A DNA stretch of 64,000 bases from Minisyncoccia bacterium. Lineage in GTDB: Bacteria > Patescibacteriota > Minisyncoccia > Phycocordibacterales > UBA9973. Below the pieces are notes generated by a model, which saw nothing but the letters and a program-made list of their open reading frames with translations, did not search any database and was not told the origin of the DNA. Positions 7,230 to 63,666 of this stretch are shown piece after piece. Position 1 is the stretch's first letter. The number at the start of each line of letters is the position of its first letter. Location of the stretch: positions 8,232 to 72,231 of the forward strand of contig JBGATK010000006.1 of NCBI GenBank assembly GCA_044229265.1, written 5' to 3'. The position numbers were made by a program, and so were the translations under genes.

Positions 7230-8654
<1,425 letters not shown>

Positions 8655-13418: not shown

Positions 13419-14108
13419 ATGTTGCAAAAACATATTCAAAAAGAAAATTTACACCATGCTTATTTGTTGTCAGGGGATATGAAAAATATTTTGGAGAATT
13501 TATTTTCTCTACTTAGTGATTTTGGCATTAAAATACAAAAAAATCCTGATTTTCATTTACTTTCATACGATACTCTAAAAATAGATGATGCTCGGCATGT
13601 AAAGAGTTTGGCAGAAAATAGAAGCTTTGACGGTAGTAAAAAAGTATTTGTAATCTCAGTTAATAATTTTTTACCAGAATCACAAAATACTTTGCTCAAA
13701 ATTTTTGAAGAACCAAAAGAAAATATGCATTTTTTTATAATTTCCAAAAATGCGGATTCATTTTTATCTACACTTCGTTCGCGCTGTTATTTGATAAACT
13801 TAGAGCAAGACAAAAATACAAATGAAGAGATTGAGAAATTTTTAAATACATCTTTGCAAAACAAAATCGACCACGTAAAAAATTTACTCGATACTGATGA
13901 AGATAAAGGTGAAGCCTCTTCTCGCACCTTGGCTTTGGAATTTTTAGATCAAATAGAATCTGCTCTCCATAATCGAATGTCAAAGATGCCCTTTGACACA
14001 GATATTTTCCACAAAATTTTCACTGCCCGTAAATATATCCGTGGAGCGGGGAGTAGTCCAAAAAATATTCTAGAAGCTATTGTCTTAAATTTACCAGAAA
14101 AAGTATAG
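13419..14108 (+). CDS. holB: DNA polymerase III delta' subunit (short form)
   Basis: HAYLLSG N-terminus, SRC-like LRSRC motif, P-loop not conserved as expected for delta'. Confidence 0.7.
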   Translation: MLQKHIQKENLHHAYLLSGDMKNILENLFSLLSDFGIKIQKNPDFHLLSYDTLKIDDARHVKSLAENRSFDGSKKVFVISVNNFLPESQNTLLKIFEEPKENMHFFIISKNADSFLSTLRSRCYLINLEQDKNTNEEIEKFLNTSLQNKIDHVKNLLDTDEDKGEASSRTLALEFLDQIESALHNRMSKMPFDTDIFHKIFTARKYIRGAGSSPKNILEAIVLNLPEKV

Positions 14109-15808: not shown

Positions 15809-17555
15809 ATGGAAAACAGGAATTGCCACCCCGAACGAAAGCAAAGCTTCATACGGGGCAGGAAATTGTAAAAGTATGGAATATAAACCACAAAATGTAA
15901 TATGCCAGAATTGTAGTGGTGAATTCATAATCGAACCAGACGATTTTTCTTTTTATGAAAAGATGAAAGTTCCAGCGCCGCATGTCTGCCCAGACTGTCG
16001 TTTTAAAATGCGCGCAATTTTTAGAAATGAAAACAAATTATATTCAGGAAGAAAATGTGATTTATGCCAAAAAAGTATAATTGCAATGTATAACCCAAAA
16101 TCTCCTTACAAGGTATATTGTCCCGAGTGTTATGCAAGCGATAACTGGGACCGCTCTTCATACGCCAAAGATTATGATTTTTCTAAATCATTTTTTGAGC
16201 AACTAAAAGAGCTAACATTATCTGTGCCCAAAATGAATTTGTATGTTACTTATTTAAATGGACCTGTAATAAATAGCCCTTTTAACAATGGTTTTGGCGG
16301 GGCCAAGAATTGCTATTATCTATTTAATGGAGGTCCTGCGGAAAATACTCAGTATTCTCGAGGGGTAAAAGATGTAAAAGATATTTCGGATTGTTATTTT
16401 TCCACTAAAATAGAAAATTCTTACGAAGCTATAAATGTACACAACTCTAACAAGATATTTTTTAGTCAGAATGTTACAAATTCCATAGAGTCAGCTTTTC
16501 TTATTAATTGCAATAACTGTATAAATTGTATTGGTTGTGTAAATTTAAACAATAAAAGTAATTGTATTTTAAATGAACAGTATACAAAAGAAGGGTACAT
16601 AGAAAAAGTAAATGAAATATTTGGTAGTTATGAAAAGATAGAAGATTTTAAAAAATCATTTTATGAGTTTTCTTTAACTTTTCCGCATAGAGAAAACAAT
16701 AATATTAAAACAGTAGATTCTACAGGAGATTATCTGAGTGAATGTAAAAATGTTAAAAATAGCATGGAAATTACTCAGAGCGAAAATGTTAAAGACGCTT
16801 TCTCTTCTAAGCAACTCAAAGATTCTATAGGAGTTTTTGGTTATGGGTTCAGTTCTGAATCTTTACTCGAAGTCGTAGCTACAGGTCATTCAAGTAATAT
16901 TATAGGTTCGTATGGCATAGATGAATCTATGAATATAGAATATAGTTTTTGTTGTTTTCCAAATAATGCCTATTTAATTGGCTGTGATTCCTTGAAAAAT
17001 TCTAAATACTGCATTTTAAATAAACAATACACAAAAGAAGAGTACGAGAAAATTAGAGAACATATTGTAAAAGAATTAACAGACCTTGGTATTTATGGCC
17101 TCATGATGCCACCATCCATCGCACCTTTTGCTTACAATGAAACTATCGCGCAAGATAACATGCCCCTGACCAAAGAAGAAGCCATTGCGCAAGGGTTTAG
17201 ATGGGAAGATGATATTCAGAAAACTGAAGGCAAGGAGACTATAAAACCAGAGCAAATTCCAGACCATATTCGTGATGTAGAGGACAGTATTACAAAAGAA
17301 ATTTTGTGTTGCATAGAGTGCAATAGGAATTATAAAATTACCGAACAAGAATTACTATTTTACCGAAAAATGATTTTGCCTATTCCAAGGAAATGTTTCT
17401 ATTGTCGCCACAAGAGCCGTATAGAAAAACGTGGCCCATACAAATTTTGGAACAGAAATTGTGCCAAGTGCGAAAAAGAAATTATCACAAATTATTCTCC
17501 GGAAAGGCCAGAGATAGTGTACTGTGAGCGTTGTTATCAAAGTGAAGTCTATTAA
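15792..17555 (+). CDS. cysteine-rich repeat protein with duplicated N- and C-terminal tandem zinc-ribbon modules (start may be 15877)
   Basis: CxxC..FYxKM..PxPxxCxxCR..RN..C..C..Y.P..P..VYC..CY occurs at both termini. Internal repeats NxxCILNxQYTKEEY. No catalytic motif recognised. Confidence 0.6.
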   Translation: MQNYFKWKTGIATPNESKASYGAGNCKSMEYKPQNVICQNCSGEFIIEPDDFSFYEKMKVPAPHVCPDCRFKMRAIFRNENKLYSGRKCDLCQKSIIAMYNPKSPYKVYCPECYASDNWDRSSYAKDYDFSKSFFEQLKELTLSVPKMNLYVTYLNGPVINSPFNNGFGGAKNCYYLFNGGPAENTQYSRGVKDVKDISDCYFSTKIENSYEAINVHNSNKIFFSQNVTNSIESAFLINCNNCINCIGCVNLNNKSNCILNEQYTKEGYIEKVNEIFGSYEKIEDFKKSFYEFSLTFPHRENNNIKTVDSTGDYLSECKNVKNSMEITQSENVKDAFSSKQLKDSIGVFGYGFSSESLLEVVATGHSSNIIGSYGIDESMNIEYSFCCFPNNAYLIGCDSLKNSKYCILNKQYTKEEYEKIREHIVKELTDLGIYGLMMPPSIAPFAYNETIAQDNMPLTKEEAIAQGFRWEDDIQKTEGKETIKPEQIPDHIRDVEDSITKEILCCIECNRNYKITEQELLFYRKMILPIPRKCFYCRHKSRIEKRGPYKFWNRNCAKCEKEIITNYSPERPEIVYCERCYQSEVY

Positions 17556-17615
17556 ATGCTACTGTGCCCTTCGTAGCTTTTGCGAAGTAGGGTCAACAGG
17601 AAGTTTATTAAATAT

Positions 17616-18197
17616 ATGAAAAAAATTATTGAATTAAATACAAAAAAAGAAATAGCCTTTGTAAGGTCAGATTTACCGATGATGGTGCATGGGGTAGAGC
17701 ATTCTGGTGCATCACTCCTCTCTATAACCATAGCAACCATTTTGCATGCAGGTGGTGAAAAGCTTTGTATTTTTACTGCTTATCCTATGGCAAAAGATGA
17801 ATTCTTGGCCGAAGTATCAAACCCTGAAGATGTATTTTATTTAGAGAATTTTGAGGATTTAACTAAGGCTAATAATTTCCAGACGATAATTGTAGAAAGT
17901 GGTAATATTGAATTGTTCAAAAAAGTTATAGCTGAAAAGGAATTATTAGGGAATAGAATTGTATTTATTAAAAATATTGAAACAATAAATCAGCCTACTT
18001 TAGAAAAATTGCAGGATTATGATTTTATGGTTTCTGGTGATTTTAGTACAAATATTTTGCAGAAAGATTTTAATGATTTAGAATACAAGACAAAAATTTT
18101 CCTTTCTCCACTTTCTCCGTTTATCGTTCCTGTTTTGGCGAAGTATCAAGCTTTTTTACAAAAAGGAACAGAAGAAAAAATTATTATTATTTCTTAA
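17616..18197 (+). CDS. hypothetical protein (193 aa), possibly co-transcribed with the upstream Cys-rich gene
   Basis: ORF with a leader hairpin related to the atpD/dnaK leaders. Alternative start at 17580. Confidence 0.5.
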   Translation: MKKIIELNTKKEIAFVRSDLPMMVHGVEHSGASLLSITIATILHAGGEKLCIFTAYPMAKDEFLAEVSNPEDVFYLENFEDLTKANNFQTIIVESGNIELFKKVIAEKELLGNRIVFIKNIETINQPTLEKLQDYDFMVSGDFSTNILQKDFNDLEYKTKIFLSPLSPFIVPVLAKYQAFLQKGTEEKIIIIS

Positions 18198-18705
18198 AAT
18201 TCTCGAAAAATAATTTCTCAGAAATACTATCTATTTTATTTGTTGTAATTATTACGAGCTCGGTGGTAAGGCCCAAATCTTTTTTAATATTTTCAAAAAG
18301 ATATTCATATGGAAAAGGGGAGATCCAAGCAGAATTTTTGAGGCACACAAAGCCAGCTTTTTTGAGGAGGTATCTTAGGCTCTCCCGCTCGGCTTTTCTA
18401 CTCTCTGGTAAATCAAGAAGTATAATACGCCAAAACCCATCCCAATTTGGGTTTACTAGAGCTTCTTCGCCAGAGACAAGTAGGCTATTTAAGCGTTTTT
18501 TACCCTCTTTAGTGAGGCGGGCATAGCTTTGGTGTTCTGACTCATGTAGCTCTGCCAAACCTCCTTCTACGAGGTTTTTGAGGCTTCTAGCGAGGGCGTA
18601 TTTGGATTTAGTATTATCTTTTTCTTTTAAAAATTCTAAAGCTACGGCTTGCTTTTCGCCTAGTTTTTTAAGGATTTTTTTGGAAAAGTCGTTTTTACTT
18701 GACAT
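18187..18705 (-). CDS. PaaX-like winged-helix transcriptional regulator, divergent from dnaK
   Basis: N-terminal wHTH, C-terminal WDGFWRIILLDLPE..R..LRYLLKKAGF..LKNSAWISPFP pattern typical of PaaX-family C-domains. Confidence 0.55.
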   Translation of the reverse strand: MSSKNDFSKKILKKLGEKQAVALEFLKEKDNTKSKYALARSLKNLVEGGLAELHESEHQSYARLTKEGKKRLNSLLVSGEEALVNPNWDGFWRIILLDLPESRKAERESLRYLLKKAGFVCLKNSAWISPFPYEYLFENIKKDLGLTTELVIITTNKIDSISEKLFFENFKK

Positions 18706-18770: not shown

Positions 18771-18814
18771 TGTCAAAGGGCATCTTTGACACATAAAATT
18801 ATTAACCATTATAA
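18771..18814 (+). promoter_or_regulatory. dnaK promoter (TTGACA-17-TTATAA) with inverted-repeat operator TGTCAAAG-N5-CTTTGACA overlapping the -35
   Basis: IR at 18771-18791, -35 at 18786-18791, -10 at 18809-18814. Second palindrome TTTCGCG-AA-CGCGAAA at 18744-18759. Confidence 0.5.
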
Positions 18815-18860
18815 ACTAATTTATCCTTCGTCGCTAAAGCTATGAAGGACAAGAAAACAT

Positions 18861-20756
18861 ATGTCAAAAATAATAGGTATAGACTTAGGTACAACAAATA
18901 GTGCGGTGGCTATCATCGAAGGAGGACAGCCAAAAATTATAGAAAATATAGAAGGAGTACGAACTACACCTTCTGTGGTGAGTATTGCTAAAAATGGTGA
19001 TAGACTGGTAGGCTTGCTTGCAAAACGTCAAGCTGTCACAAATCCTGAAAATACCGTTTATGGTATCAAGCGTTTTATGGGCCATAATTTTGAAGATCCA
19101 GAAGTGCAAAAGGATTTGAAGAATGCATCATTCAAAATTCAAAAAGGATCAACTGGTGGAGTGGAAGTTAAGATTGGCGATAAATGGATGCGTCCAGAAG
19201 AAATCTCTGCCATGATTTTAACTAAAATTAAAACTGATGTTGAAGCAAAATTAGGAACTAAAATTACCGAAGCAGTGATCACCGTGCCAGCATACTTTAA
19301 CGATGCACAAAGAAAAGCTACCAAAGATGCAGGAGCTATCGCTGGGCTTGATGTAAAAAGAATTATCAACGAGCCTACAGCTGCAGCCCTTGCCTATGGT
19401 TTCGATAAAAAGAAAAATGAAAAGGTAGTGGTGTATGACTTTGGAGGAGGAACATTCGATGTGTCAGTTCTCGAAATCGGTGATGATGTTATAGAGGTGA
19501 AATCAACTGATGGAGACTCCCATTTAGGAGGTCGTGATATTGATCACAAGATTATAGCTTGGATCGCAGAAGAATTTAAAAAGACCTCTGGTGTGGATGT
19601 TCGTTCTGATAAGCTTGCTCTTCAGCGTCTTGATGAAGCTGCAGAAAAAGCAAAGATAGAGCTCTCTACTGCTATTGAAACAGAGATAAATATTCCTTTC
19701 ATTACGAGTACCGAAGCTGGACCTCAACACCTCTTACTCAAGATGACTCGTGCACAATTAGAAAGTATTGCTGATGAGTACATAACTCGTTCAATTGAAA
19801 TCACAAAGAAAGCTTTAGCTGCTTCTGGTTTCAGTATGAATGATATAAATGAAATCATTATGGTTGGAGGTCAAACTCGTATGCCAAAGATTGTAGAAGA
19901 AGTTAAAAAAGTTTTTGGTAAAACTCCAAACCTCTCTATTAATCCAGATGAAGTTGTAGCACTTGGAGCTGCTGTGCAAGCTGGAGTTCTCGCAGGAGAT
20001 GTTAGAGATGTACTTCTTCTTGATGTCATACCACTTTCCCTTGGTATTGAAACTTTGGGTGGTGTAGCTACAAAATTAATTGAAAGAAACACTACAATCC
20101 CTGCAAATAAATCTCAAGTATTCTCTACAGCAGCTGATAATCAAACCAGTGTAGAAATTCATATAGTACAAGGTGAACGTCCTATGGCGAGCGACAACAA
20201 ATCTCTAGGTCGTTTTATTCTAGATGGAGTTCCACCTGCACCTCGTGGCATGCCACAGATAGAAGTCTCCTTTGATGTCGACGCAAATGGTATATTAAAT
20301 GTTACAGCTAAAGACAAAGCTTCAGGTAAAGCAAATTCTATAAAAATAGAAGCAAGCTCAGGTCTTAAAGATGAAGACATTAAAAAAATGCAGGCTGATG
20401 CGGAAATGCATGCCGAAGAAGATGCAAAGAAAAAAGAAATGGTTGATGTGAAAAATACTGCCGAGATGATACTCTATACAGCTGAGAAAGCAGTAAAAGA
20501 TGCTGGTGATAAAGTTTCTACTGAAATTAAAGCTGGTGTCGAAGGTAAAATTACAGCCCTCAAATCTGCAAAAGATGGTAGTGATATGGAAGCAATTAAA
20601 AAAGCTACCGAAGAACTCTCAAATGAAATGCAAAAGATAGGTGAGGCTATGGCGAAAAGTTCACCCGAGTCCGATGGAGGCGGACAGGCGAATCAAACAC
20701 CCGAACCTCAACCAGAAGAAATTAAAAACGAAAATCCTGAAGAGCCAAAAAATTAA
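18861..20756 (+). CDS. dnaK: molecular chaperone DnaK (Hsp70)
   Basis: [18 protein letters not shown], 631 aa. Confidence 0.97.
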
Positions 20757-20770
20757 TATTAAAAAAACAA

Positions 20771-20796
20771 AAAAACCCGAATTCGGGTTTTTTTGT
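20771..20796. terminator. intrinsic terminator after dnaK (bidirectional-looking)
   Basis: aaaaaaa-cccgaattcggg-ttttttt. Confidence 0.85.
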
Positions 20797-20797
20797 T

Positions 20798-20826
20798 TTG
20801 CTTTGCTCCTCTCTAGTTGTTATAAT
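20798..20826 (+). promoter_or_regulatory. sigma70-like promoter TTGCTT-17nt-TATAAT. The downstream gene would be nearly leaderless
   Basis: -10 ends 8 nt before the ATG at 20835. Confidence 0.45.
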
Positions 20827-20834
20827 TTAAGTAT

Positions 20835-23075
20835 ATGCATGGAGGGGAAGAAGATAAAAAAAGTAATGGCGATTTACCTGTAAATCGTGATTTAACCTAT
20901 ATCGGTAAAACAACGTATCGTGATAAAAACACGCTTTTTGGAATTAAAAGAAAAGATAGGCGTCAACATGTATATGTGCTCGGTAAATCTGGTACTGGTA
21001 AATCTGTTCTTCTTTCAAATATGATTGTGCAAAATATTCAAAATGGCGACGGTGTCGCTGTGGTGGATCCGCACGGAGAATTAGTCGAAGGAATACTTCA
21101 GTCTATCCCCGAAAATCGTCTAAAAGATGTAGTGTATTTTAATCCTGCAGATGTAGACTTTCATATTGGTTTTAATGTCTTAGAATTAGTGGATTTAAAA
21201 TACAAACACTTAGTTGCTTCTGGGCTCATGGGTATATTTACCAAAATTTGGGCTAATGCTTGGAGTGCGCGTATGGAATACATTCTGAACAATACAATCT
21301 TGGCTCTGCTCGATACTCCAGGCACCACACTTCTCGGTGTTCCTCGTATGCTTGTAGACAAAGATTATCGTCAACAAATAATAAATAATTTAAAAGACCC
21401 TGTTATTAAAGCTTTTTGGGTGCACGAATATGAAGCTTGGCAAGAAAAATTTCGTAATGAAGCGATCGCTCCTATTCAAAATAAAGTTGGGCAATTTCTC
21501 TCTACTTCTGTTATTCGCAATATTGTTGGACAAAGTAAAAGTACTATAAATATTTTTGATATGATGAATCAAGGGAAAATTTTCCTCGTGAACGTTTCTA
21601 AAGGACGTATTGGTGAAGATAACTCAAAACTTATCGGTGGTATGATTATTACCAAAATTCAGCTGGCTGCCATGGAGCGTGTGCGTATACCAGAAGACGA
21701 GCGTAAAGATTTTTATCTATATGTCGACGAATTCCAAAATTTCGTTACTGATTCTTTTGCTTCAATTTTATCTGAAGCTCGTAAATACCGCCTGAATTTG
21801 ACTGTGGCCCACCAATATACTGCTCAGCTTGTAACCAAAGAGAGTTCAAATGTTCGTGATGCTATTTTCGGCAACGTAGGAACTATGATAGTTTTTAGAG
21901 TTGGTGCGGATGATGCTGATTTTCTAGAAAAAGAATTTGCACCAGAATTCACACCAGAAGATTTAGTGAATTTGCCTAACTTTAAAATTTACCTAAAACT
22001 TATGATAGATGGCATAACCTCAAGGCCATTTTCTGCAAAAACATTACCTCCGATAATTAAAAAGCTTGATCATACTATAGAAGAACAAGTTATTAAAATG
22101 TCTCGAGAGCTTTATTGTCGCCCTCGTGATACTGTCGAAAATGAAATAAATCAGTGGAGTGGTATGTCTATAGACGATGGAGCTTCTGGCGGGGGAAATA
22201 CTGGTGAAAAATTCAAAGCAATTTGTTCGAATTGCGGTAAAGAAACTTTTGTGCCTTTTGAACCTACACCAGGCAGGCCTGTGTATTGCAAAGAGTGTGT
22301 AGCAAAAATAAAATCTGGCGAAGTAAAGCCAATACGAGGCGTTACGGGTCAAGAATTTCGTGACGATAGTAAATACTTTAAACCACTTGCTGATTTAGGT
22401 ATAGAATTTGAAAGTGGGGGTAGTGTTCAAAAAGAAAAACCAAAAGTTTTTCAAAATAATATTCCTAAACCTCCAGCTATGCCGTATATACCAAGAGTAA
22501 ACAATACTGCTCCCATGCAACAGCCACAAAAAACTTTTACACAAAATGTAAAGAAAGTATTAAATACAAATTTAACAGCACCATTTCATAAAAATAACGC
22601 TAATAATAGTGCTGGTAAACCCAGTGTGCCTAATAAAAATTTCGCAGATAAACCGAAAGAAAATTTAGCTCTTAAAGAAATTTTGAATAAAACCTTAAAT
22701 GAACAAAAAATTATTGAACTAAAAAAAGAAGAAAAAATAATAGAAGACAAGAAACCGACTCCAGCACCAATTTCCTTAAATACTTTACAAAGCAAACCCG
22801 TGAGTAATGATATAAAACCGACAAATGATCGCTCCGCCGGAGCCGATAAAATGAATTCTTTGAAAGATTTGCTTGCTAAAGTAGAGGGTGAGAGAAAAGA
22901 AAACGAAAAACCAATAGAAAATAAACCTCCAGAAATTCCTATTCCACAAAAAAATACACCACCCCGTTTTGATCAAGCTCAAAACACCCCTCCTTTAAAA
23001 GGTGGGGAAGAAAAAATACAACCCAAAGAAGTACCAGAAGAAGTCCTGAAGAAAATTCTAGAAGATGAAAATTAA
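20835..23075 (+). CDS. soluble TraD/TraG/VirD4-like (type IV coupling protein family) P-loop ATPase with C-terminal zinc ribbon and Pro/Lys-rich tail
   Basis: Walker A GKSGTGKS, DPHGE, Walker B YVDEFQNF, RKYRLNLTVAHQ, no N-terminal TM helices. CSNCGK..RPVYCKEC ribbon. Confidence 0.7.
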   Translation: MHGGEEDKKSNGDLPVNRDLTYIGKTTYRDKNTLFGIKRKDRRQHVYVLGKSGTGKSVLLSNMIVQNIQNGDGVAVVDPHGELVEGILQSIPENRLKDVVYFNPADVDFHIGFNVLELVDLKYKHLVASGLMGIFTKIWANAWSARMEYILNNTILALLDTPGTTLLGVPRMLVDKDYRQQIINNLKDPVIKAFWVHEYEAWQEKFRNEAIAPIQNKVGQFLSTSVIRNIVGQSKSTINIFDMMNQGKIFLVNVSKGRIGEDNSKLIGGMIITKIQLAAMERVRIPEDERKDFYLYVDEFQNFVTDSFASILSEARKYRLNLTVAHQYTAQLVTKESSNVRDAIFGNVGTMIVFRVGADDADFLEKEFAPEFTPEDLVNLPNFKIYLKLMIDGITSRPFSAKTLPPIIKKLDHTIEEQVIKMSRELYCRPRDTVENEINQWSGMSIDDGASGGGNTGEKFKAICSNCGKETFVPFEPTPGRPVYCKECVAKIKSGEVKPIRGVTGQEFRDDSKYFKPLADLGIEFESGGSVQKEKPKVFQNNIPKPPAMPYIPRVNNTAPMQQPQKTFTQNVKKVLNTNLTAPFHKNNANNSAGKPSVPNKNFADKPKENLALKEILNKTLNEQKIIELKKEEKIIEDKKPTPAPISLNTLQSKPVSNDIKPTNDRSAGADKMNSLKDLLAKVEGERKENEKPIENKPPEIPIPQKNTPPRFDQAQNTPPLKGGEEKIQPKEVPEEVLKKILEDEN

Positions 23076-27336: not shown

Positions 27337-28728
27337 TTAAAAATCTTCAAAATCACCAGCGGTTTTATTTTGCGAAAATTCGTTTATGCTATTTTTTTCA
27401 ATACTAAGGAACGTTGTGCTTTTTTCATCAAAATAAAGTTCTACTTTACCTACAGGGCCATTGCGGTGTTTTTCGACAAGAATTTCAGCTATATTGGTGC
27501 GCTCGTGCTCTTCTTTTCCTTTGTCTTCGCGGTGAATAAACATCACCACATCAGCATCTTGTTCGATAGATCCTGAATCACGCAAATCAGAAAGGCGAGG
27601 CTTGCCACCACGAGTCTCCACAGCACGGGAAAGCTGAGAAAGTGCGACCACAGGTACATCGAGCTCTTTGGCGAGGGCCTTGAGAGAACGAGATATTTCT
27701 GTAACTTGGTTCACCATCGAATCATAATTTTTACTTGTAGTCATGAGTTGCAAGTAGTCGACGACAATAAGGTCGAGGCCTTTCTCAGCTTTAACTCTAC
27801 GAGCGAGGGCTTTCATATTTACAATCGAATTTCCAGCACGATCATCGATAACGATTTGAGCTTTAGCTAATTTATCCAAAGAATCACGAAGTAAAGCAAA
27901 TTCACGATCAGAAGAAAGTTTGCCTGTGCGTAAGTGAAAAGCATTTACATTGGATTGGGCGCCAAGCAATCTATCGACTAATTGTTGAGAAGACATTTCG
28001 AGTGAAAATATCAATACAGATTTATTGTGATTTACTGCACTCATGCGAGCCATATCGAGGGCAAAAGTAGTTTTACCAACGGAAGGACGAGCAGCAAGTA
28101 TGACTAGGTCAGTCTTTTGAAGTCCAGAAAGTAGGGTATCGAGATCACGAAAGCCAGTAGGTATACCTCGAAGTTCTCCTTTATTGGCATGTAATTTTTC
28201 TAAACGTTCCCAAGCTTCGGGTAGGGCATCCTTGAGCTCTACGAATTGCTGATTTTTAGGACTAGAAACAATATTAAAAATTCTTTTTTCGGCTTCATCT
28301 AAAACTTCTTCTATTTTGTCATCACCTTCAGAAAATGCTTTTTCAGAAATAAAATCTGCAGCATCTATCAGAGAGCGCAAGATAAATTTCTTTTCGACAA
28401 TTTGCGCATAATATTTTACATTGGCAGATGATGGCACAGAATTCGCTAGGTCGGCCAAGTATTTATTACCACCGATAGAATCAAGCAAACCTTTCTCATT
28501 TAATTTTGTGGAAAGTGAAAGCATATCAATAGGTTCATGCTTGCCAAATAGTTCGAGCATGGCATTGAAAATAATTTTATGTTTTTCGCTATAAAAAGTT
28601 TCTGGTAATAAAATATCTTCCACTTCATGTATAGCGTCTTTACGTAACATAATAGAGCCGAGTACTGCTTGCTCAGCATCGATATTTTGTGGGGGGATTC
28701 TAATACCATTTTTGTTTCCTTTTGACAT
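27337..28728 (-). CDS. dnaB: replicative DNA helicase DnaB
   Basis: Walker A GARPSVGKTTFAL, RecA-like C-domain, 463 aa. Confidence 0.95.
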   Translation of the reverse strand: MSKGNKNGIRIPPQNIDAEQAVLGSIMLRKDAIHEVEDILLPETFYSEKHKIIFNAMLELFGKHEPIDMLSLSTKLNEKGLLDSIGGNKYLADLANSVPSSANVKYYAQIVEKKFILRSLIDAADFISEKAFSEGDDKIEEVLDEAEKRIFNIVSSPKNQQFVELKDALPEAWERLEKLHANKGELRGIPTGFRDLDTLLSGLQKTDLVILAARPSVGKTTFALDMARMSAVNHNKSVLIFSLEMSSQQLVDRLLGAQSNVNAFHLRTGKLSSDREFALLRDSLDKLAKAQIVIDDRAGNSIVNMKALARRVKAEKGLDLIVVDYLQLMTTSKNYDSMVNQVTEISRSLKALAKELDVPVVALSQLSRAVETRGGKPRLSDLRDSGSIEQDADVVMFIHREDKGKEEHERTNIAEILVEKHRNGPVGKVELYFDEKSTTFLSIEKNSINEFSQNKTAGDFEDF

Positions 28729-50474: not shown

Positions 50475-51818
50475 TTAGCATATTTTATGGTCTATAGCAC
50501 TCTTAAGCCTAGCTAAAGCCTCATCTTGGCCTAGTGTATAAGCCAAAATAAATGGATCTGGACTTTTATCCATACCAGATAGTGCTATACGCACAGGATG
50601 CAAAGTTTGACCTACACTACCACCAGCTTTAGCAATCATAGTTAGAACTTCTTTAATTTTTTCTAAATTATAATCCTCACTTTTTATACTTTTTAATGCC
50701 TCGAAAGCACTCATAAGTCTAACTTTAACATCAGCAAGTGTCATGTTCTTAAAAATTAATTTTTGGGTAGGGTAGTCATTGGCAGAAAAAATGAAATTAA
50801 GCTCCCCCATTTCTATCATTTTTTTTACATCAGACCATTTGGAAATTCTGTCAAAAATAATAGGAATAATTTTTGTTATAACTTCCCTATTTAAATTTTT
50901 AAAATTCTCGGGTAAAAATTCCAAAATATTTTTTTCAATTTCTTCAATGCTCAAATTCTTCATATGCATTTTATTGAACCATTCTAATTTTTCTTCATTA
51001 AAAACTGCCGGGCTTTTTTGTACTCGTTCTAAATCAAATTCTGTTATCAATTCATCATGAGTGAATATTTCTTTTTCAGTACCAGGATTCCATCCTACAA
51101 AAGCAGTTCCGTTTAAAATAGCTTGTGGTAAAAAACCCAAGTTTTTATATTCGCTAGCAGATCTAGCTCCGCGACGCTTTGAAAGCTTTTGTTTATCTAT
51201 ACCAAGGACTAGCGGCAAATGCGCATATATTGGCGTAGGTGCGCCTATAGCACGTTGGATTAGGATTTGCCTAGGTGTATTTGATACGTGGTCTTCTCCA
51301 CGAATTACGTGAGTTATACCTTCTTCGAAATCATCCACAACTACAGCTAGGTGAAAAAGTGGTTCATTTAAATTTTTAGCAATTACGAAATCACCTAAAT
51401 CCTCGGTATGAATTTTTACCTCACCTTTTATTAAATCAAAAAAAGTAATATCTATTTTAGGATTTTTAAAACGCACGATTTCTTTTATAACTCCCGAACC
51501 ATCTTTTGCTTCTTCTTTTGAGATATAAGCAGTGCCATCAGCTATCATTTTTTCTAGATATTTTTTATGGGTATCTACGTGTTCACTTTGACGGTAAAAT
51601 TCATCATAAGGTAGATCAAGCCATTTTAAGCTCTCTAATATATCCTCTTCATATTCTTTTTTACTACGTTCTTTGTCTGTATCTTCGATGCGCAAAATAA
51701 ATTTGCCGTTATTCTTTTTAGCAAAAAGATAAGAAAAAATAGCAGTACGGAATACACCCAAATGCAGTAATCCTGTAGGACTCGGAGCAAAACGCGTAAT
51801 TACTGGTTTTTCATTCAT
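50475..51818 (-). CDS. gltX: glutamate--tRNA ligase
   Basis: PSPTGLLHLG (HIGH) and KLSKR (KMSKS). Confidence 0.95.
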   Translation of the reverse strand: MNEKPVITRFAPSPTGLLHLGVFRTAIFSYLFAKKNNGKFILRIEDTDKERSKKEYEEDILESLKWLDLPYDEFYRQSEHVDTHKKYLEKMIADGTAYISKEEAKDGSGVIKEIVRFKNPKIDITFFDLIKGEVKIHTEDLGDFVIAKNLNEPLFHLAVVVDDFEEGITHVIRGEDHVSNTPRQILIQRAIGAPTPIYAHLPLVLGIDKQKLSKRRGARSASEYKNLGFLPQAILNGTAFVGWNPGTEKEIFTHDELITEFDLERVQKSPAVFNEEKLEWFNKMHMKNLSIEEIEKNILEFLPENFKNLNREVITKIIPIIFDRISKWSDVKKMIEMGELNFIFSANDYPTQKLIFKNMTLADVKVRLMSAFEALKSIKSEDYNLEKIKEVLTMIAKAGGSVGQTLHPVRIALSGMDKSPDPFILAYTLGQDEALARLKSAIDHKIC

Positions 51819-61433: not shown

Positions 61434-62744
61434 TTATCTGATAAATTCTTTGCCTCCCATGTATCCTCGCAAAACTTCAGGGATTTTCACAGAGCCGTCA
61501 GCTTGCTGATAATTTTCTATTATAGCGATCAATATTCTACCCAGAGCACAAGCAGTAGCATCATTCATATGCACGAGTTCGTTTTCACCATTTTCCCTTT
61601 TTACTTTTGTATTTAAACGACGAGATTGAAAACTAGTCATGAGATCAGCAGTATGAGTTTCCCTGAAAGTATCTTGCCCTGGCATCCATGTATTTATATC
61701 TATCTGCCTTGAATCAGGTTTACCCATATCACCTGTGCAAACTATCATAACTTCGTGAGGTAATTTTAAAGATTGGAGTAAATATTCTTGAATACCTACG
61801 AGAAGCTCTTGTTCTTGAATAGAAGTTTCTGGTAAACAAAAAGTTTCCATTTCCATTTTTTCAAATTGATGCACACGCAGTATGCCTCGAGTATCTTTTC
61901 CATAAGTTCCTGCTTCGCGACGAAAGGCTGGAGAGTATCCTATATAACGCACTGGCATTTCATTTTCCATAAAAGTATGGTTCATATGCATTGGGCCCAT
62001 GGTGTGTTCTGCACTACCTATCAAATACAAATCATCTTCTGCTAAATGATAGCGATCTTCTTTTGGATGAAGCCTGCCCATTTTTAAGAAAGTATTAGGA
62101 TTTATCATAAAAGGAGGAATTACTGGCTTAAAAGGTTTTGGACTTATATTTAAATTTTTACTATCTATTATTTGTTTTAAAGTTTCTTCATTGGTGCAAA
62201 TTTCAAATACAAAATTTATGAGAGCAAATTGTAGTAAAACCAAATCACCTTTCAAATATGTAAAACGACTGCCGACAACTTCTGCTGCAGTTTCATTGTC
62301 GATAATTCCAAGAAAGTTTCCTATTTCAACATGATCTTTTACTTTAAAATCAAAAACTGGTTTTTCACCCCAAGTGCGCAAAACAACATTTCCAGATTCA
62401 TCAGGACCTATTGGGGTATCAGCTGAAGGTAAATTTGGAACGTCCAGCATTATTTTTTGCCAATCTGTCATGACTTCTTTGAGTGCATCTTCTTTAATTT
62501 TTATATCATCTTTTACAAGACGCATTTCTTCAATAGTTTGGACTTTTAAAGAAGGGTCAGTATTGCGACTAATTGCTATAGATACTCGATTCACCTCGGC
62601 ACGCAAGGTTTCAAGAGCGCGCATTATTTCAAGGCGTTTATCATCGAGCTTTATAAGGGCTTCAACATCAATTTCGATATTTTTTTTCTTAGCTCCAGCT
62701 TTTATTAATTCCGCATTTTCACGGATGAATTTTATATCTAACAT
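61434..62744 (-). CDS. serS: serine--tRNA ligase
   Basis: N-terminal coiled coil, class II motifs, 436 aa. Confidence 0.95.
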   Translation of the reverse strand: MLDIKFIRENAELIKAGAKKKNIEIDVEALIKLDDKRLEIMRALETLRAEVNRVSIAISRNTDPSLKVQTIEEMRLVKDDIKIKEDALKEVMTDWQKIMLDVPNLPSADTPIGPDESGNVVLRTWGEKPVFDFKVKDHVEIGNFLGIIDNETAAEVVGSRFTYLKGDLVLLQFALINFVFEICTNEETLKQIIDSKNLNISPKPFKPVIPPFMINPNTFLKMGRLHPKEDRYHLAEDDLYLIGSAEHTMGPMHMNHTFMENEMPVRYIGYSPAFRREAGTYGKDTRGILRVHQFEKMEMETFCLPETSIQEQELLVGIQEYLLQSLKLPHEVMIVCTGDMGKPDSRQIDINTWMPGQDTFRETHTADLMTSFQSRRLNTKVKRENGENELVHMNDATACALGRILIAIIENYQQADGSVKIPEVLRGYMGGKEFIR

Positions 62745-62790
62745 ATTTCTATTATATATTATTATTGATATAATTCAAATATATACTTTT

Positions 62791-63666
62791 ATGAAAATAA
62801 GTAAATTACAAAGGAGTAAATTTCCAAGTAGCTTACTCGAATTACCTCAACCGCCAGAGAATCTATACTATTTAGGAAACATAGAAGAATATCTGGAAAA
62901 TCCAGATCTAATTTATTTATGCATAGTCGGCTCACGAAAATACACTACTTATGGCAAGGATATTTGTGAGAAAATAATTACTGGTTTAAAAGGCTATCCT
63001 ATTGTAATTGTTTCTGGTTTTGCTATGGGTATAGATACTATAGCCCACAGGACTGCTATAAAAAATAATATGAGGACTTTAGTTTTTCCAGGATCAGGAT
63101 TATCCAAAGAAGCAATATTCCCAAAAATTAATGCAAACTTTATGGACGAAATTTTAAACGCTGGTGGATGTTTTATTTCCGAGTGGGAGCCAGAGTTCAA
63201 AGCTCAGCATTGGACCTTCCCTATGCGCAACAGACTCATGGCAGGAATGAGCAGGGCCATACTAGTAATAGAAGCCGAAGAAAAGTCTGGCACACTTATC
63301 ACTGCCAGGCTTGCCATAGAATACAATAAAGATTTGCTTGCAGTTCCAGGATCAGTTTTTTCGAGTTCTTCTAAAGGCACAAATAAATTAATCCGCCAAG
63401 GGGCAGTGCCAATAACATGCGGTGAAGATGTATTGCAAGAGCTTGGTTTTGATTTAAAAAAAGATGAAAATAAGCAATTAGAACTTTTTGAAGAATTAAA
63501 TATTGATGAGAAAAAAGTTTTAGAAATATTACGCGAGCCGATGGATCGTGATGAATTACTTCGCGCAATGAAAATGCCTATAGGAAATGCGAATACCCTA
63601 CTCTCAGTTATGGAAATAAAAGGTTTAATAAAAGAAGAGCTCGGCCAAATCCGCTCGAATTTTTAG
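62791..63666 (+). CDS. dprA: DNA processing protein DprA (Smf)
   Basis: Rossmann-like DprA core GSRKYTTYG, GFAMGID..AH, C-terminal wHTH. Confidence 0.9.
   Translation: MKISKLQRSKFPSSLLELPQPPENLYYLGNIEEYLENPDLIYLCIVGSRKYTTYGKDICEKIITGLKGYPIVIVSGFAMGIDTIAHRTAIKNNMRTLVFPGSGLSKEAIFPKINANFMDEILNAGGCFISEWEPEFKAQHWTFPMRNRLMAGMSRAILVIEAEEKSGTLITARLAIEYNKDLLAVPGSVFSSSSKGTNKLIRQGAVPITCGEDVLQELGFDLKKDENKQLELFEELNIDEKKVLEILREPMDRDELLRAMKMPIGNANTLLSVMEIKGLIKEELGQIRSNF

What the first reader, a model, noticed from the sequence alone, without database searches (positions are those of the whole stretch)
20798..23075. Standalone, soluble type-IV-coupling-protein-like ATPase with C-terminal zinc ribbon, apparently leaderless
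The 746-aa protein has the TraD/TraG/VirD4-family core (GKSGTGKS, DPHGE, YVDEFQNF, RKYRLNLTVAHQ) but lacks the N-terminal TM helices that anchor coupling proteins. No relaxase, VirB4, pilin or other T4SS genes are nearby, since it lies between dnaK and cysS. It ends in a CSNCGK..PFEPTPGRPVYCKEC zinc ribbon matching the ribbons of the 587-aa protein at 15792, followed by about 250 residues of Pro/Lys/Asn-rich low complexity. A consensus promoter -10 ends 8 nt before the ATG, implying a leaderless mRNA. A cytoplasmic DNA-translocase-like ATPase in a genome that also encodes DprA could relate to DNA uptake or processing rather than conjugation.
Basis: partly seen in the sequence, partly recalled or inferred. 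Interest (0 to 1): 0.55.

Follow-up and report, generated by a model that had tools for sequence, protein, structure and literature searches.

The report
Soluble coupling-protein-like ATPase beside dnaK
This gene encodes a membrane-anchor-less relative of the conjugation "coupling" motor. It is vertically inherited, as well conserved as DnaK across a large group of ultra-small (Patescibacteria) bacteria, and never lies next to secretion or conjugation genes, so it is a core motor of unknown cargo rather than a plasmid leftover.

Summary
ORF 20835..23075 encodes a 746-aa VirD4/TrwB-like P-loop ATPase with no TM helix. It has a CxxC-x17-CxxC zinc ribbon, a 251-aa K/P/E/N-rich tail, and a TGnTATAAT box 8 nt before the ATG.

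"Standalone" is wrong at family level. In Nomurabacteria-type genomes the usual order is grpE-(ZnBH)n-paaX-like(<)-dnaK-ATP1-(ZnBH)n-ATP2-dnaJ. ATP2 is a 45%-identical paralog. ZnBH is the family of the 587-aa zinc-ribbon protein, with 0-6 copies per locus. In sister lineages the ortholog follows a gene for a membrane protein (DUF8128), or is fused to it.

The core is 83% identical across species whose DnaK is 80% and CysS 50% identical. No VirB4 or relaxase lies within 10 kb in 86 loci. The tail carries five conserved short motifs, including an invariant C-terminal peptide.

The leaderless layout is real (73/78 orthologs) but is the norm in this genome.

Best reading (about 0.4): a T4SS-independent ring translocase, probably for DNA, that recruits partners through its ribbon and tail. 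Rivals are a coupling protein acting in trans for the chromosomal T4SS, and an Hsp70/Sec-linked protein handler.

A 2025 paper already noted orphan T4CP homologues in Patescibacteria. The anatomy described here appears new.

The parts
20764..20799 (+). dnaK intrinsic terminator hairpin (AAAACAAAAAAACCCGAA/TTCGGGTTTTTTTGTTTT) that separates dnaK from the ATPase gene
   Evidence: An 18-nt perfect inverted repeat, also listed as terminator-like. A GGGCTTTTT-type terminator tail is seen upstream of many orthologs.
20818..20826 (+). Extended -10 promoter TGtTATAAT, with 8 nt between the hexamer and the ATG (leaderless layout)
   Evidence: Read from the sequence. 73/78 orthologous upstream regions have TATAAT (<=1 mismatch) starting at -16..-11, and 44 of them carry TGn. 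The two-hexamer scan did not list it because the -35 is poor.
20835..23075 (+). CDS of the 746-aa soluble T4CP-like ATPase ('ATP1')
   Evidence: ORF and translation. Pfam and NCBIfam matches. A 100% identical protein, P0001, is in NCBI.
20982..21005 (+). Walker A motif, GKSGTGKS (aa 50-57)
   Evidence: Position. G50, K51, S52, G53, G55, K56 and S57 are invariant in 56 orthologs. The motif is also kept in ATP2.
21195..21500 (+). All-alpha insertion (about aa 121-222), the T4CP-type AAD, with extremely conserved sequence (GLMGIFTKIWANAWSARMEYILNN...)
   Evidence: The Pfam TrwB_AAD_bind match spans aa 39-357. The AF2 model has helices at 121-222, though with low pLDDT there. The invariant columns are listed.
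21720..21743 (+). Walker B motif, YVDEFQNF (aa 296-303)
   Evidence: Position. The motif is invariant or nearly so in orthologs and is kept in ATP2.
21780..21815 (+). RKYRLNLTVAHQ (aa 316-327), the T4CP-type arginine/sensor motif
   Evidence: Position. It aligns with TrwB RKAGLRVVAGLQ and is invariant in orthologs.
22209..22307 (+). Treble-clef zinc ribbon of CxxC-x17-CxxC type (aa 459-491; Cys 464, 467, 485, 488)
   Evidence: Pfam zf_Tbcl_2 scores 9.1e-14 and TIGR04272 scores 4e-15. The ribbon is present in 84/84 ATP1 orthologs and 0/57 ATP2. Zinc binding by this domain type was shown in Methanosarcina mazei small proteins (PMC12704099).
22320..23072 (+). K/P/E/N-rich, presumably disordered tail (251 aa). 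It carries five conserved islands: KPLADLGIEF (22380-22409), LALKEILNK (22665-22691), PISLNTL (22767-22787), MNSLKDLLAKV (22851-22883) and the C-terminal EVLKKILEDEN (23040-23072).
   Evidence: Composition and coordinates. The nearly invariant tail columns are listed. PISLxxL, an LxxLL-type motif and the C-terminal ...KVLE motif recur in orthologs with 52-60% core identity. The C-terminus KEVPEDVLRKILE is the commonest ending, with only conservative variants elsewhere.
15876..17555 (+). 'ZnBH': the 587-aa ORF (likely true start ATG 15876, 559 aa). It has two zinc ribbons at each end and a repeat-rich centre. The family accompanies ATP1/ATP2 in relatives.
   Evidence: Ribbons found by regex. 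At least 6,542 homologs, all unnamed or hypothetical and from Paceibacteria. Paralogs flank dnaK, ATP1 and ATP2 in relatives. No Pfam, NCBIfam, PDB or fold match beyond the zinc fingers.
18187..18705 (-). PaaX_M-domain regulator-like gene, divergent from dnaK and conserved in the cluster
   Evidence: Pfam PaaX_M scores 1.8e-19. The gene is in the same position in nearly all related loci.
18861..20756 (+). dnaK, immediately upstream
   Evidence: Pfam HSP70 scores 1.8e-245.

Best explanation
ATP1 is the soluble motor subunit of a chromosomal, vertically inherited ATPase system found in almost all Patescibacteria. The system belongs to the coupling-protein (VirD4/TrwB) clade of FtsK-HerA ATPases. 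It is not a conjugation remnant, and it most likely does not depend on a T4SS.

**Shown**
- The catalytic motifs are intact and invariant.
- It has a T4CP-type nucleotide-binding domain with an all-alpha insertion.
- It has no TM helix.
- Its conservation equals that of DnaK.
- No T4SS or relaxase gene is linked to it.
- A zinc ribbon is followed by a low-complexity tail that carries five conserved short motifs and a highly conserved C-terminal peptide.
- In sister lineages the same motor follows, or is fused to, a membrane protein (TM + DUF8128).

**Inferred**
- It assembles into a hexameric ring. In relatives the ring may be mixed with, or work beside, the paralog ATP2.
- It burns ATP to thread a polymer through the ring. 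The polymer is most probably DNA. The reasons are that its closest solved folds are DNA motors, that phage relatives sit beside a nicking/relaxase-type protein or a VirB4-like ATPase, and that the CPR orthologs follow a sigma-r4/HARE-HTH DNA-binding protein.
- The zinc ribbon and the tail motifs act as docking sites for partners or clients, as the C-terminal tail of F-plasmid TraD docks TraM.
- In this lineage the membrane tether gene is not adjacent, and the gene has come to lie directly behind dnaK.
- It has its own promoter and a leaderless mRNA.
For: **Family and fold**
- Pfam T4CP families score above gathering.
- TrwB is the best PDB match by sequence (2e-6) and by fold (Foldseek 6e-8). 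HerA, DotL, Cag-beta and VirB4 follow.

**Active enzyme**
- Walker A, Walker B and the RKY...HQ motif are invariant in 56 orthologs. They are also kept in ATP2.

**Core gene, not mobile**
- All 8,000 scored candidates pass E<=1e-5, and the best 120 share its domain architecture.
- 6,535 50%-identity clusters reach E<=1e-30.
- 492 GTDB species genomes matched.
- Median identity to the window: ATP1 core 83%, DnaK 80%, CysS 50%. Against a Terrybacteria genome: ATPase 57%, DnaK 62%, DnaJ 40%, CysS 35%.
- GC content is like that of its surroundings.

**No T4SS link**
- No VirB4-like or relaxase-like ORF lies in the window or in 86 loci of +/-10 kb.
- In 3,026 Patescibacteria assemblies, T4CP homologues occur in 2,918 and the VirB4 clade in 2,407. 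Only 148 of 5,713 T4CP genes lie near virB4 (PMC12102498).

**Membrane tether in relatives**
- 63 of the 150 nearest cluster representatives carry an N-terminal DUF8128 domain.
- In L088, L091, L092 and L093 a separate DUF8128 gene directly precedes the Zn-ribbon ortholog.
- phrog_5156 and Bacillus phage G gp156 have the fused form.

**DNA hints**
- SPO1 gp27.4 lies between a Replic_Relax protein and an Alp7A-like partition protein. Phage G gp156 follows a TraG/VirB4-like ATPase.
- A sigma70_r4/HARE-HTH gene precedes DUF8128 or the fused gene in all 5 non-Nomurabacteria loci that carry DUF8128.

**Docking tail**
- The conserved islands and the C-terminal peptide are shown.

**Own promoter, leaderless**
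Against: - No experiment or computation here shows DNA binding, oligomerisation or ATP hydrolysis.
- The structure model is mediocre (pLDDT 63.7, TM about 0.4-0.47 to TrwB). It cannot separate T4CP from HerA.
- The neighbours in CPR genomes are protein-handling genes (grpE/dnaK/dnaJ here; SecA/SecDF in L088, L091, L092). This fits a protein client as well as a DNA client.
- No DUF8128 gene was found in the window or in the 86 dnaK-type loci. How, or whether, this lineage's motor reaches the membrane is therefore unknown.
- The phage contexts involve relatives with only 23-30% identity.
- PMC12102498 reports that the T4CP homologue of Southlakia epibionticum was not essential. That sits oddly with DnaK-level conservation, although it comes from another class and a laboratory co-culture.
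Confidence: 0.4

Rival explanations
1. It is a genuine type IV coupling protein that works in trans with the chromosomal Patescibacteria T4SS, which the literature places near dnaA/dnaN. It would deliver substrates to that machine although it is encoded elsewhere and lacks its own TM anchor.
For: - The domain content is T4CP-like.
- T4CP genes are often encoded away from virB4, and a T4SS of monoderm type is widespread in Patescibacteria, including Paceibacteria (PMC12102498).
- The Southlakia T4SS cluster itself lacks a recognisable coupling protein (PMC10633639), so a distant one could serve it.
- The conserved C-terminal docking peptides resemble T4CP substrate-receptor tails.
Against: - T4CP homologues occur in more assemblies (2,918) than the VirB4 clade (2,407) out of 3,026.
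- The Southlakia homologue was not essential although the T4SS genes were.
- Relaxases are almost absent in the phylum (109 in 103 genomes).
- The protein has no TM anchor.
- Conservation at DnaK level is unlike the coupling proteins of mobile elements. The closest plasmid homologue is only 35% identical.
- Every NCBIfam T4CP equivalog model scores far below its cut-off, for example SXT_TraD 50.9 against 366.
Confidence: 0.25
2. It is a protein-handling ring ATPase tied to the Hsp70 system and/or the Sec pathway. It would thread or present polypeptides, for example the ZnBH paralogs as clients or adaptors, for remodelling or export. This would be analogous to the FtsK-family EssC/EccC motors of type VII secretion.
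For: - The gene order grpE-...-dnaK-ATP1-(ZnBH)n-ATP2-dnaJ recurs: dnaK lies upstream in 49/52 loci, ATP2 downstream in 49/53 and dnaJ in 50/53.
- SecA/SecDF lie close to the ortholog in L088, L091 and L092.
- ZnBH copy number varies (0-6) and the family evolves fast (about 41% identity against 83% for the ATPase), as substrate families do.
- ZnBH shares the ribbon type with ATP1.
- The tail holds Leu-rich motifs flanked by basic residues.
- EccC appears among the weaker fold matches.
Against: - A terminator and a dedicated promoter separate dnaK from ATP1.
- Whole-region synteny, from ribosomal proteins to cysS and the AI-2E transporter, is conserved in this clade. Adjacency is therefore weak evidence.
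- In Terrybacteria the complete hrcA-grpE-dnaK-dnaJ operon lies 2.5 kb away from the sigma/HARE-DUF8128-ATPase triad. The dnaK link therefore looks like inherited neighbourhood tightened by deletions.
- Eleven of 43 loci have no ZnBH copy within +/-10 kb.
- ZnBH proteins carry four cytoplasmic-type zinc sites and no signal peptide was noted.
- The best fold and sequence matches are DNA motors.
Confidence: 0.2
3. It is the ATPase of an anti-phage defence system of the HerA/MADS type.
For: PADLOC mad8 scores 9.7e-17, with weak HerA hits. Fold matches include the Sir2-HerA and DUF4297-HerA complexes. A Bradyrhizobium plasmid homologue sits among CHAT/TPR genes.
Against: - The gene is near-universal, single-locus and vertically inherited, with DnaK-level conservation. 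Defence genes are patchy and fast-evolving.
- No nuclease, Sir2, methylase or other effector partner is present in 86 loci.
- The PADLOC match is what any T4CP/HerA P-loop would give.
Confidence: 0.03
4. It is a decaying remnant of an integrated conjugative element.
For: It is an orphan T4CP-like gene without a TM anchor and without T4SS neighbours.
Against: The reading frame is intact and the catalytic residues are invariant. There are thousands of orthologs at conserved chromosomal positions. Its conservation is higher than that of cysS or dnaJ. No integrase, relaxase or compositional anomaly is present.
Confidence: 0.01

Closest known systems
Type IV coupling proteins (TrwB of R388, VirD4, TraD/TraG, DotL, Cag-beta)
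   Same: It has an FtsK-HerA-type P-loop domain with an inserted all-alpha domain. The Walker A, Walker B and RK...Q motifs align with TrwB. These proteins are the top sequence and fold matches. It also has a C-terminal extension with a conserved terminal peptide, like the TraM-binding tail of TraD.
   Different: - It has no N-terminal TM domain.
- It has no T4SS or relaxase neighbours.
- It is chromosomal, vertically inherited and extremely conserved.
- It carries a zinc ribbon.
- It scores far below every NCBIfam T4CP equivalog cut-off.
- Sequence identity to TrwB is limited to the motifs.
'T4CP homologues' of Patescibacteria reported by Quinonero-Coronel et al. 2025 (PMC12102498)
   Same: This is almost certainly the same protein population. 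The paper reports 5,713 VirD4-like proteins in 2,918 of 3,026 assemblies, about two per genome. Only 148 lie near virB4, and the authors raise possible exaptation.
   Different: The paper's main text does not mention dnaK or zinc (0 occurrences of either term). It therefore does not describe the zinc ribbon, the dnaK-cluster position, the DUF8128 partner, the ATP1/ATP2 split, the ZnBH family or the degree of conservation.
DUF8128-fused ATPases (phrog_5156; Bacillus phage G gp156; CPR proteins such as P0292)
   Same: The ATPase core is 50-57% identical in the CPR members and 30% identical in phage G. ATP1 matches phrog_5156 at 4e-67.
   Different: Those proteins carry 1-2 TM helices and a roughly 350-aa DUF8128 domain at the N-terminus. 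ATP1 has neither, and no DUF8128 gene lies near it. None of them has a known function.
SftA of Bacillus subtilis (soluble FtsK-like DNA translocase) and FtsK/SpoIIIE
   Same: This is an analogy from my own knowledge, not a tested link. SftA is a soluble member of the same ATPase superfamily that acts on chromosomal DNA without a TM anchor of its own. FtsK also combines a motor with a long low-complexity linker.
   Different: The Pfam FtsK_SpoIIIE match is below cut-off (17.4 against 24 bits). ATP1 has no gamma/KOPS-type domain. Its domain order is motor, then ribbon, then tail, not anchor, linker, motor.
HerA (archaeal/bacterial HerA-NurA, Sir2-HerA)
   Same: It has comparable fold-search scores (1.4e-7) and a DUF87 match above cut-off.
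   Different: The NCBIfam HerA model scores E 0.05 and 12 bits against a 970-bit cut-off. No HerA N-terminal (HAS-barrel) region was matched, and no nuclease or Sir2 partner is present. The all-alpha insertion is T4CP-like.

Membership tests
Type IV coupling protein (VirD4/TraD/TraG/TrwB) | FtsK-HerA-type nucleotide-binding domain with Walker A, Walker B and the arginine/sensor motif | tested here: met
   Motifs lie at aa 50-57, 296-303 and 316-327. They align with TrwB and are invariant in orthologs.
Type IV coupling protein (VirD4/TraD/TraG/TrwB) | All-alpha domain inserted in the nucleotide-binding domain | tested here: met
   Pfam TrwB_AAD_bind scores 43.9 bits against a 20.5-bit cut-off over aa 39-357. 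The model shows a helical block at 121-222, but with low confidence there.
Type IV coupling protein (VirD4/TraD/TraG/TrwB) | N-terminal transmembrane anchor | tested here: not met
   The maximum 19-residue hydropathy is 1.11, and the P-loop starts at residue 50. Related proteins carry the TM segment in a separate or fused DUF8128 module.
Type IV coupling protein (VirD4/TraD/TraG/TrwB) | Genetic linkage to a T4SS (VirB4 and others) and/or a relaxase | tested here: not met
   No such ORF lies in the window or in 86 loci of +/-10 kb. The literature finds 148 of 5,713 genes near virB4.
Type IV coupling protein (VirD4/TraD/TraG/TrwB) | Curated equivalog score (NCBIfam TraD/VirD4-like models) | tested here: not met
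   The best are SXT_TraD at 50.9 bits against 366 and CD1115 at 47.2 bits against 250.
Type IV coupling protein (VirD4/TraD/TraG/TrwB) | Recruits substrates to a T4SS channel | not testable with these tools
   This needs interaction or transfer assays.
CxxC-x17-CxxC / zf_Tbcl_2 treble-clef zinc ribbon | Two CxxC pairs 17 residues apart that match the curated models | tested here: met
   PF23477 scores 51.3 bits against 27, and TIGR04272 scores 55.2 bits against 36. All four Cys are invariant in orthologs. Zinc binding by this domain type was shown experimentally in M. mazei.
FtsK/SpoIIIE DNA translocases | Match to the FtsK_SpoIIIE motor model | tested here: not met
   PF01580 scores 17.4 bits against a 24-bit cut-off, over aa 8-65 only.
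HerA helicase | Match to the HerA equivalog, plus a nuclease or other partner | tested here: not met
   NF040819 scores 12.1 bits against 970. No NurA, Sir2 or DUF4297-like neighbour is present.
Leaderless mRNA gene | -10 box placed about 6-8 nt before an AUG start, no Shine-Dalgarno sequence, conserved in orthologs | tested here: met
   The layout holds in 73/78 orthologous upstream regions. The start codon picked at that position was ATG, which was the search criterion. The actual 5' end of the transcript was not measured. The same layout is seen at most operon-first genes in the window.
DUF8128-associated ATPase system (uncharacterised) | DUF8128 membrane module fused to the ATPase or encoded directly upstream | tested here: not met
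   No DUF8128 homolog was found in the window or in the 86 dnaK-type loci (positive control). The feature is met in orthologs of other Parcubacteria. The rest of this genome could not be searched.

The most novel reading that the evidence does not exclude
ATP1, with ATP2 and in other lineages the DUF8128 membrane module, forms a Patescibacteria-wide housekeeping translocase that has nothing to do with type IV secretion. It could be the cytoplasmic motor that pulls scavenged DNA into these nucleotide-auxotrophic cells. It could instead be a chaperone-coupled polymer-threading machine, with the ZnBH zinc-ribbon proteins as lineage-specific adaptors docking on LxxLL-type motifs of the tail.
Probability: 0.35. 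Interest if true: 0.8.

Novelty: new variant of a known kind. Interest (0 to 1): 0.6.

Why it matters
Patescibacteria make up a large share of bacterial diversity, yet few of their phylum-specific core genes have a known function. This ATPase is present in nearly every genome and is as conserved as DnaK, but it is annotated only as a "type IV secretion DNA-binding domain" or "CxxC-x17-CxxC" protein.

If it is a T4SS-independent motor, two things follow:
- Counts of T4CP homologues must not be read as evidence of conjugation or secretion capacity in these organisms.
- A well-defined, testable module becomes available for asking how ultra-small epibionts move DNA or proteins. The module comprises the motor, its paralog, a DUF8128 tether, a zinc ribbon and invariant docking peptides.

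The gene is also a clean, comparatively supported example of promoter-adjacent (leaderless) starts as the genome-wide rule in a CPR lineage.

Tried and rejected
- **Decayed conjugative element.** Rejected on conservation, invariant catalytic residues and fixed chromosomal position.
- **Defence ATPase.** The PADLOC mad8 hit is generic P-loop similarity, and no effector partner is present.
- **ZnBH structure and function.** The AF2 model was poor in the centre (pLDDT 67). Foldseek against the PDB gave nothing below E 0.5. A profile against PDB sequences found only LIM-like zinc fingers at E>0.02. NCBIfam, PHROGs and PADLOC gave nothing.
- **ZnBH as a divergent DUF8128.** hhalign probability was 0.2%.
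- **DUF8128 against the PDB.** No match up to E 10. This Pfam copy lacks PF26449.
- **w205 (17580-18197) as a degenerate ATPase or GrpE.** No similarity was detected.
- **Shared operator linking dnaK with ATP1, ATP2 and ZnBH.** A 21-bp palindrome occurs twice in the window and sporadically upstream of those genes in three other loci. A per-locus test found no general pattern.
- **The consensus promoter scanner** did not list the TGnTATAAT promoter.
- **Literature on FtsK or ClpB absence in Paceibacteria.** The searches were uninformative.
- **Limit on scope.** I could not search whole Nomurabacteria genomes for DUF8128, VirB4, FtsK or ClpB.

Full report
**1. What is in the sequence**

A single long ORF runs 20835..23075 on the + strand and encodes 746 aa.

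All quoted motifs are present:
- Walker A, GKSGTGKS, aa 50-57
- DPHGE, aa 78-82
- Walker B, YVDEFQNF, aa 296-303
- RKYRLNLTVAHQ, aa 316-327
- a C464-x2-C467-x17-C485-x2-C488 ribbon

Pfam places the N-terminal 440 residues in the coupling-protein families, all above gathering score: TrwB_AAD_bind, T4SS-DNA_transf, TraG-D_C and DUF87. It places residues 459-491 in zf_Tbcl_2. NCBIfam recognises the CxxC-x17-CxxC domain above cut-off. Every curated TraD/VirD4 model scores far below cut-off.

The best solved relative by sequence is TrwB (2e-6), aligned over the P-loop and the Walker B/RK..Q block. An AlphaFold2 model of residues 1-500 is only moderate (pLDDT 63.7). Foldseek nevertheless puts TrwB first (6e-8), followed by HerA, DotL, Cag-beta and VirB4.

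There is no hydrophobic segment. The best 19-residue Kyte-Doolittle window scores 1.11, against 1.6-3.1 for the TM helices of fused relatives. The last 251 residues are rich in K, P, E and N.

The window is a housekeeping region. It encodes ATP synthase, PriA, MreB, HolB, Frr, RseP, DnaK, CysS, RecR, DnaB, several aminoacyl-tRNA synthetases, ScpA, PBP2, MurG, FtsW, MraY and DnaX. DprA lies near the right end. GC content around the gene is unremarkable.

**2. The promoter and leaderless claim**

TGtTATAAT occupies 20818-20826 and the ATG starts at 20835. The dnaK terminator hairpin lies at 20764-20799.

In 78 distinct orthologous upstream regions, an ATG sits 10-14 codons (usually 11) before the conserved LTYIG anchor. 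In 73 of them a TATAAT-like hexamer starts at -16..-11, and 44 of those carry the TGn extension. Other positions have at most 3 hits each, apart from a small peak of 6 at -6.

The layout is therefore real and conserved, but it is not special to this gene. Most operon-first genes in the window have the same arrangement, and Shine-Dalgarno-like motifs are nearly absent.

**3. It is a core gene of a large bacterial group**

All 8,000 scored candidates in the 90%-identity database were significant. The best 120 are 60-100% identical over 83-100% of the query and share its Pfam domain set. Where they are named, they come from Paceibacterota or Patescibacteria MAGs. The 50%-identity representative library holds 6,535 clusters at E<=1e-30. 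A pattern scan of one genome per GTDB species confirmed 492 genomes.

In an alignment of 56 orthologs the first 500 residues are 80-98% identical to the window protein, with about 260 invariant columns.

Within the same loci, median identity to the window proteins is:
- ATP1 core, 83%
- DnaK, 80%
- PaaX-like regulator, 60%
- CysS, 50%

Against a Terrybacteria genome the figures are ATPase 57%, DnaK 62%, DnaJ 40%, CysS 35% and GrpE 29%. A T4CP homologue conserved like Hsp70 is not a decaying mobile-element gene.

**4. It is not standalone**

Loci around close homologs and 80 species-level loci were annotated by homology. They show the recurring order grpE-(ZnBH)n-paaX-like(<)-dnaK-ATP1-(ZnBH)n-ATP2-dnaJ, followed in many loci by an arginase-family gene, cysS(<) and an AI-2E transporter gene(<).

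Linkage counts:
- dnaK lies within 8 kb upstream in 49/52 loci.
- ATP2 lies downstream in 49/53.
- dnaJ lies downstream in 50/53.

ATP2 is a roughly 500-aa paralog, 45% identical to the ATP1 core. Its Walker A, Walker B and RKY..HQ motifs are intact. It has no zinc ribbon (0/57) and no TM helix.

ZnBH is the family of the window's 587-aa ORF, whose true start is probably ATG 15876. It has more than 6,500 members, all hypothetical proteins of this group. Each member has two zinc ribbons at each end. There are 0-6 copies per locus, and they diverge much faster than the ATPase (about 41% identity).

No other gene is universal in the cluster. The window itself, like its nearest relative L009, has a reduced version: one ZnBH, an unknown 205-aa ORF, the regulator, dnaK and ATP1, then cysS directly. 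It has no ATP2, dnaJ or grpE nearby.

**5. The deeper partner is a membrane protein**

Among the 150 nearest 50%-cluster representatives, 63 carry an N-terminal extension of about 400 aa. It consists of 1-2 TM helices plus the DUF8128 domain. Another 84 are soluble, and 15 of those have the ribbon.

In four loci from other Parcubacteria lineages (L088, L091, L092, L093; L093 is Terrybacteria, and the DUF8128 protein of L092 is named Candidatus Parcubacteria), the Zn-ribbon ortholog directly follows a separate DUF8128 gene. Its core is 53-60% identical to ATP1 and it carries the same tail motifs. The DUF8128 gene in turn follows a sigma70_r4/HARE-HTH gene. SecA or SecDF lie nearby in three of the four. 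In L087 the DUF8128 module and the ATPase are one protein, and a second ATPase lies upstream.

A neighbour-joining tree places ATP1 in the mostly soluble clade and ATP2 inside the DUF8128-fused clade. The N-terminus of ATP2 matches the linker that follows DUF8128.

In Terrybacteria a complete hrcA-grpE-dnaK-dnaJ operon lies 2.5 kb upstream of the triad. Proximity to dnaK is therefore ancestral neighbourhood. In the Nomurabacteria-type lineage it became direct adjacency, while the sigma/HARE and DUF8128 genes left the locus. No DUF8128 homolog occurs in the window or in the 86 dnaK-type loci (the search method is validated). Standalone DUF8128 proteins found with the last database search carry Pacebacteria, Terrybacteria or Parcubacteria names, and none is named Nomurabacteria.

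**6. The tail is a docking device**

Five islands are conserved within an otherwise variable, low-complexity tail:
- KPLADLGIEF
- LALKEILNK
- PISLNTL
- MNSLKDLLAKV, which is LxxLL-type
- the C-terminal KEVPE(D/E)VL(R/K)KILE

PISLxxL, an LxxLL-type motif (DIEGLRELL, DVEGLRSLL) and a ...RKVLE terminus recur in orthologs whose cores are only 52-60% identical. ATP1 orthologs almost always end in PEDVLRKILE or a close variant, and ATP2 nearly always ends in (S)QEAEPMI.

A disordered linker followed by an invariant terminal peptide is the logic by which F-plasmid TraD binds TraM. That comparison rests on my own knowledge. It is consistent with the Pfam TraG-D_C match.

**7. No T4SS link**

Seeds for a VirB4/TraG-type ATPase and for a relaxase-type protein found nothing in the window or in the 86 loci. 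The window's annotated genes include none.

The literature agrees. In 3,026 Patescibacteria assemblies, VirD4-like proteins occur in 2,918 (5,713 copies), and the Patescibacteria VirB4 clade occurs in 2,407. Only 148 t4cp genes lie near virB4. Relaxases are rare. The Southlakia homologue was not essential although the T4SS genes were, and the authors raise exaptation (PMC12102498). The Southlakia T4SS cluster lacks a recognisable coupling protein (PMC10633639).

**8. Relatives outside the phylum**

tblastn finds homologs of at most 35-38% identity in 694 plasmids, 508 of them non-mobilizable. Two that I inspected (Sulfitobacter and Bradyrhizobium) have no T4SS around them.

Large Bacillus phages also carry relatives:
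- Phage G gp156 has a DUF8128-like N-terminus (hhalign probability 97%). It follows a TraG/VirB4-like ATPase.
- SPO1 gp27.4 lies between a Replic_Relax protein and an Alp7A-like actin.
- phrog_5156 has the fused architecture.

These contexts are DNA-related, but the identities are low (23-30%).

**9. How it most likely works**

*Shown.* It is an intact, strongly constrained T4CP-type ATPase without an anchor. It has a zinc ribbon and a motif-bearing tail, its own promoter, a paralog and a zinc-ribbon protein family as companions in relatives, and a membrane module as the fused or adjacent partner in sister lineages. It has no T4SS link.

*Inferred.* It forms a ring, like all characterised members of this fold. 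It threads a polymer using ATP. The ribbon and tail recruit partners.

I favour DNA as the cargo, for three reasons. The nearest folds are DNA motors. The phage relatives have relaxase, VirB4 or partition neighbours. The CPR orthologs have a sigma-r4/HARE-HTH DNA-binding neighbour. I hold this at only about 0.4, because the CPR neighbourhoods (Hsp70 system, Sec components) would fit a polypeptide cargo equally well and nothing here tests binding.

The main rivals are a coupling protein serving the chromosomal T4SS in trans (0.25) and an Hsp70/Sec-linked protein handler (0.2). A defence role or a decayed element is very unlikely.

**10. Novelty and verdict**

The existence of orphan T4CP homologues in Patescibacteria is published. 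I did not find the following in the searchable literature:
- the soluble Zn-ribbon subfamily
- its DnaK-level conservation
- the ATP1/ATP2 pair inside the grpE-dnaK-dnaJ cluster
- the DUF8128 split or fused partner
- the conserved docking peptides
- the ZnBH family

I rate this a new variant of a known kind, with interest 0.6. It is a real, ordinary-looking gene that marks a conserved but functionally blank machine in a major bacterial radiation.

Noticed in passing
window, genome-wide (e.g. 12394, 14146, 27337-28728(-), 28835, 31203, 33210, 50475-51818(-)): Most operon-first genes have a TGnTAnAAT box ending 6-8 nt before the ATG, and almost no gene has a Shine-Dalgarno motif. Leaderless initiation seems to be the rule in this genome.
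   Followed up: partly
window 7262-7301 and 18821-18860: dnaK and atpD (ATP synthase beta, 7302-8654) are the only genes with an SD-like GAAGGA. Both have the same 5' leader, a hairpin CCTTC-N13-GAAGG followed by ACAAGAAAA and the ATG. This could be an expression or thermosensor element for highly expressed genes. Rfam has no match there.
   Followed up: partly
window 13978-13998 and 18771-18791: An identical 21-bp palindrome, TGTCAAAG-N5-CTTTGACA, occurs twice in opposite orientation. One copy overlaps a TTGACA -35 upstream of dnaK. The other lies inside the end of holB, 150 nt before frr-rseP-ZnBH. The same palindrome sits 5-61 nt upstream of ZnBH, ATP1 or ATP2 in L032, L034 and L056, but a general regulon could not be shown.
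   Followed up: partly
window 18187-18705 (-): A PaaX_M-domain (Cas2-like) protein is divergently encoded next to dnaK in nearly all Nomurabacteria-type loci, where hrcA would be expected. Terrybacteria (L093) still have hrcA. This may be a replacement heat-shock regulator.
   Followed up: no
window 17580-18197 (+): An unknown 205-aa ORF lies between ZnBH and the regulator. It has no family match. Its only two homologs in 86 loci (L041, L046) also lie inside the cluster, L046's next to ATP2 and L041's after dnaJ.
   Followed up: partly
window 15876-17555; paralogs in L001-L086: The ZnBH family has two zinc ribbons at each end (a C-x2-C...CPxCR type plus a CxxC-x17-CxxC type) and two central blocks of about 6-residue periodic repeats ending in C.GC..L.N..YCILN.QY.KEEY. 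It has 0-6 copies per locus, is restricted to this lineage, and has no detectable relatives of known structure.
   Followed up: partly
L054-L072 etc. (ATP2 genes, e.g. L001:15941-17446): The paralog ATP2 ends in a nearly invariant octapeptide, (S)QEAEPMI-COOH, after a variable acidic linker. This suggests a docking peptide.
   Followed up: no
L087:2857-3852, L088:4753-5820, L091:5406-6548, L092:8771-9838, L093:8862-9923: A roughly 355-380-aa protein with an N-terminal sigma-70 region 4 and a central HARE-HTH domain always precedes DUF8128 (or the fused gene) in non-Nomurabacteria Parcubacteria. It is absent from the window and the dnaK-type loci.
   Followed up: partly
L005:9590-9958, L006:3212-3580, L045:8877-9212: A TfoX_N-domain gene (competence-regulator family) lies upstream of ATP1, between dnaK and ATP1, in a few loci. 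In L005/L006 it is the immediately preceding gene.
   Followed up: no
L096 (SPO1 92636-95356) and L097 (phage G 90859-93336): Large Bacillus phages encode relatives with a DUF8128-like N-terminus. SPO1 gp27.4 sits between a Replic_Relax protein and an Alp7A-like actin. Phage G gp156 sits after a TraG/VirB4-like ATPase. Neither has an annotated function.
   Followed up: partly
L044, L050, L057, L080 (e.g. L080:12000-12631): A pair of small overlapping ORFs (114 and 96 aa), which looks like a toxin-antitoxin pair, is inserted within the cluster downstream of ATP1 in four loci. Other sporadic inserts lie between dnaK and ATP1.
   Followed up: no
record titles of L007, L009, L011, L039 etc.: Many of these Paceibacteria/Nomurabacteria-type contigs are deposited as 'uncultured Candidatus Saccharibacteria bacterium', and one as 'Burkholderiales bacterium' (L039). 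These are probably taxonomic mislabels or bin contamination.
   Followed up: no
window 62374-63666 (+): DprA is present (1.3e-37 to S. pneumoniae DprA). The listed ORF overlaps serS on the other strand, so the true start is probably later.
   Followed up: partly
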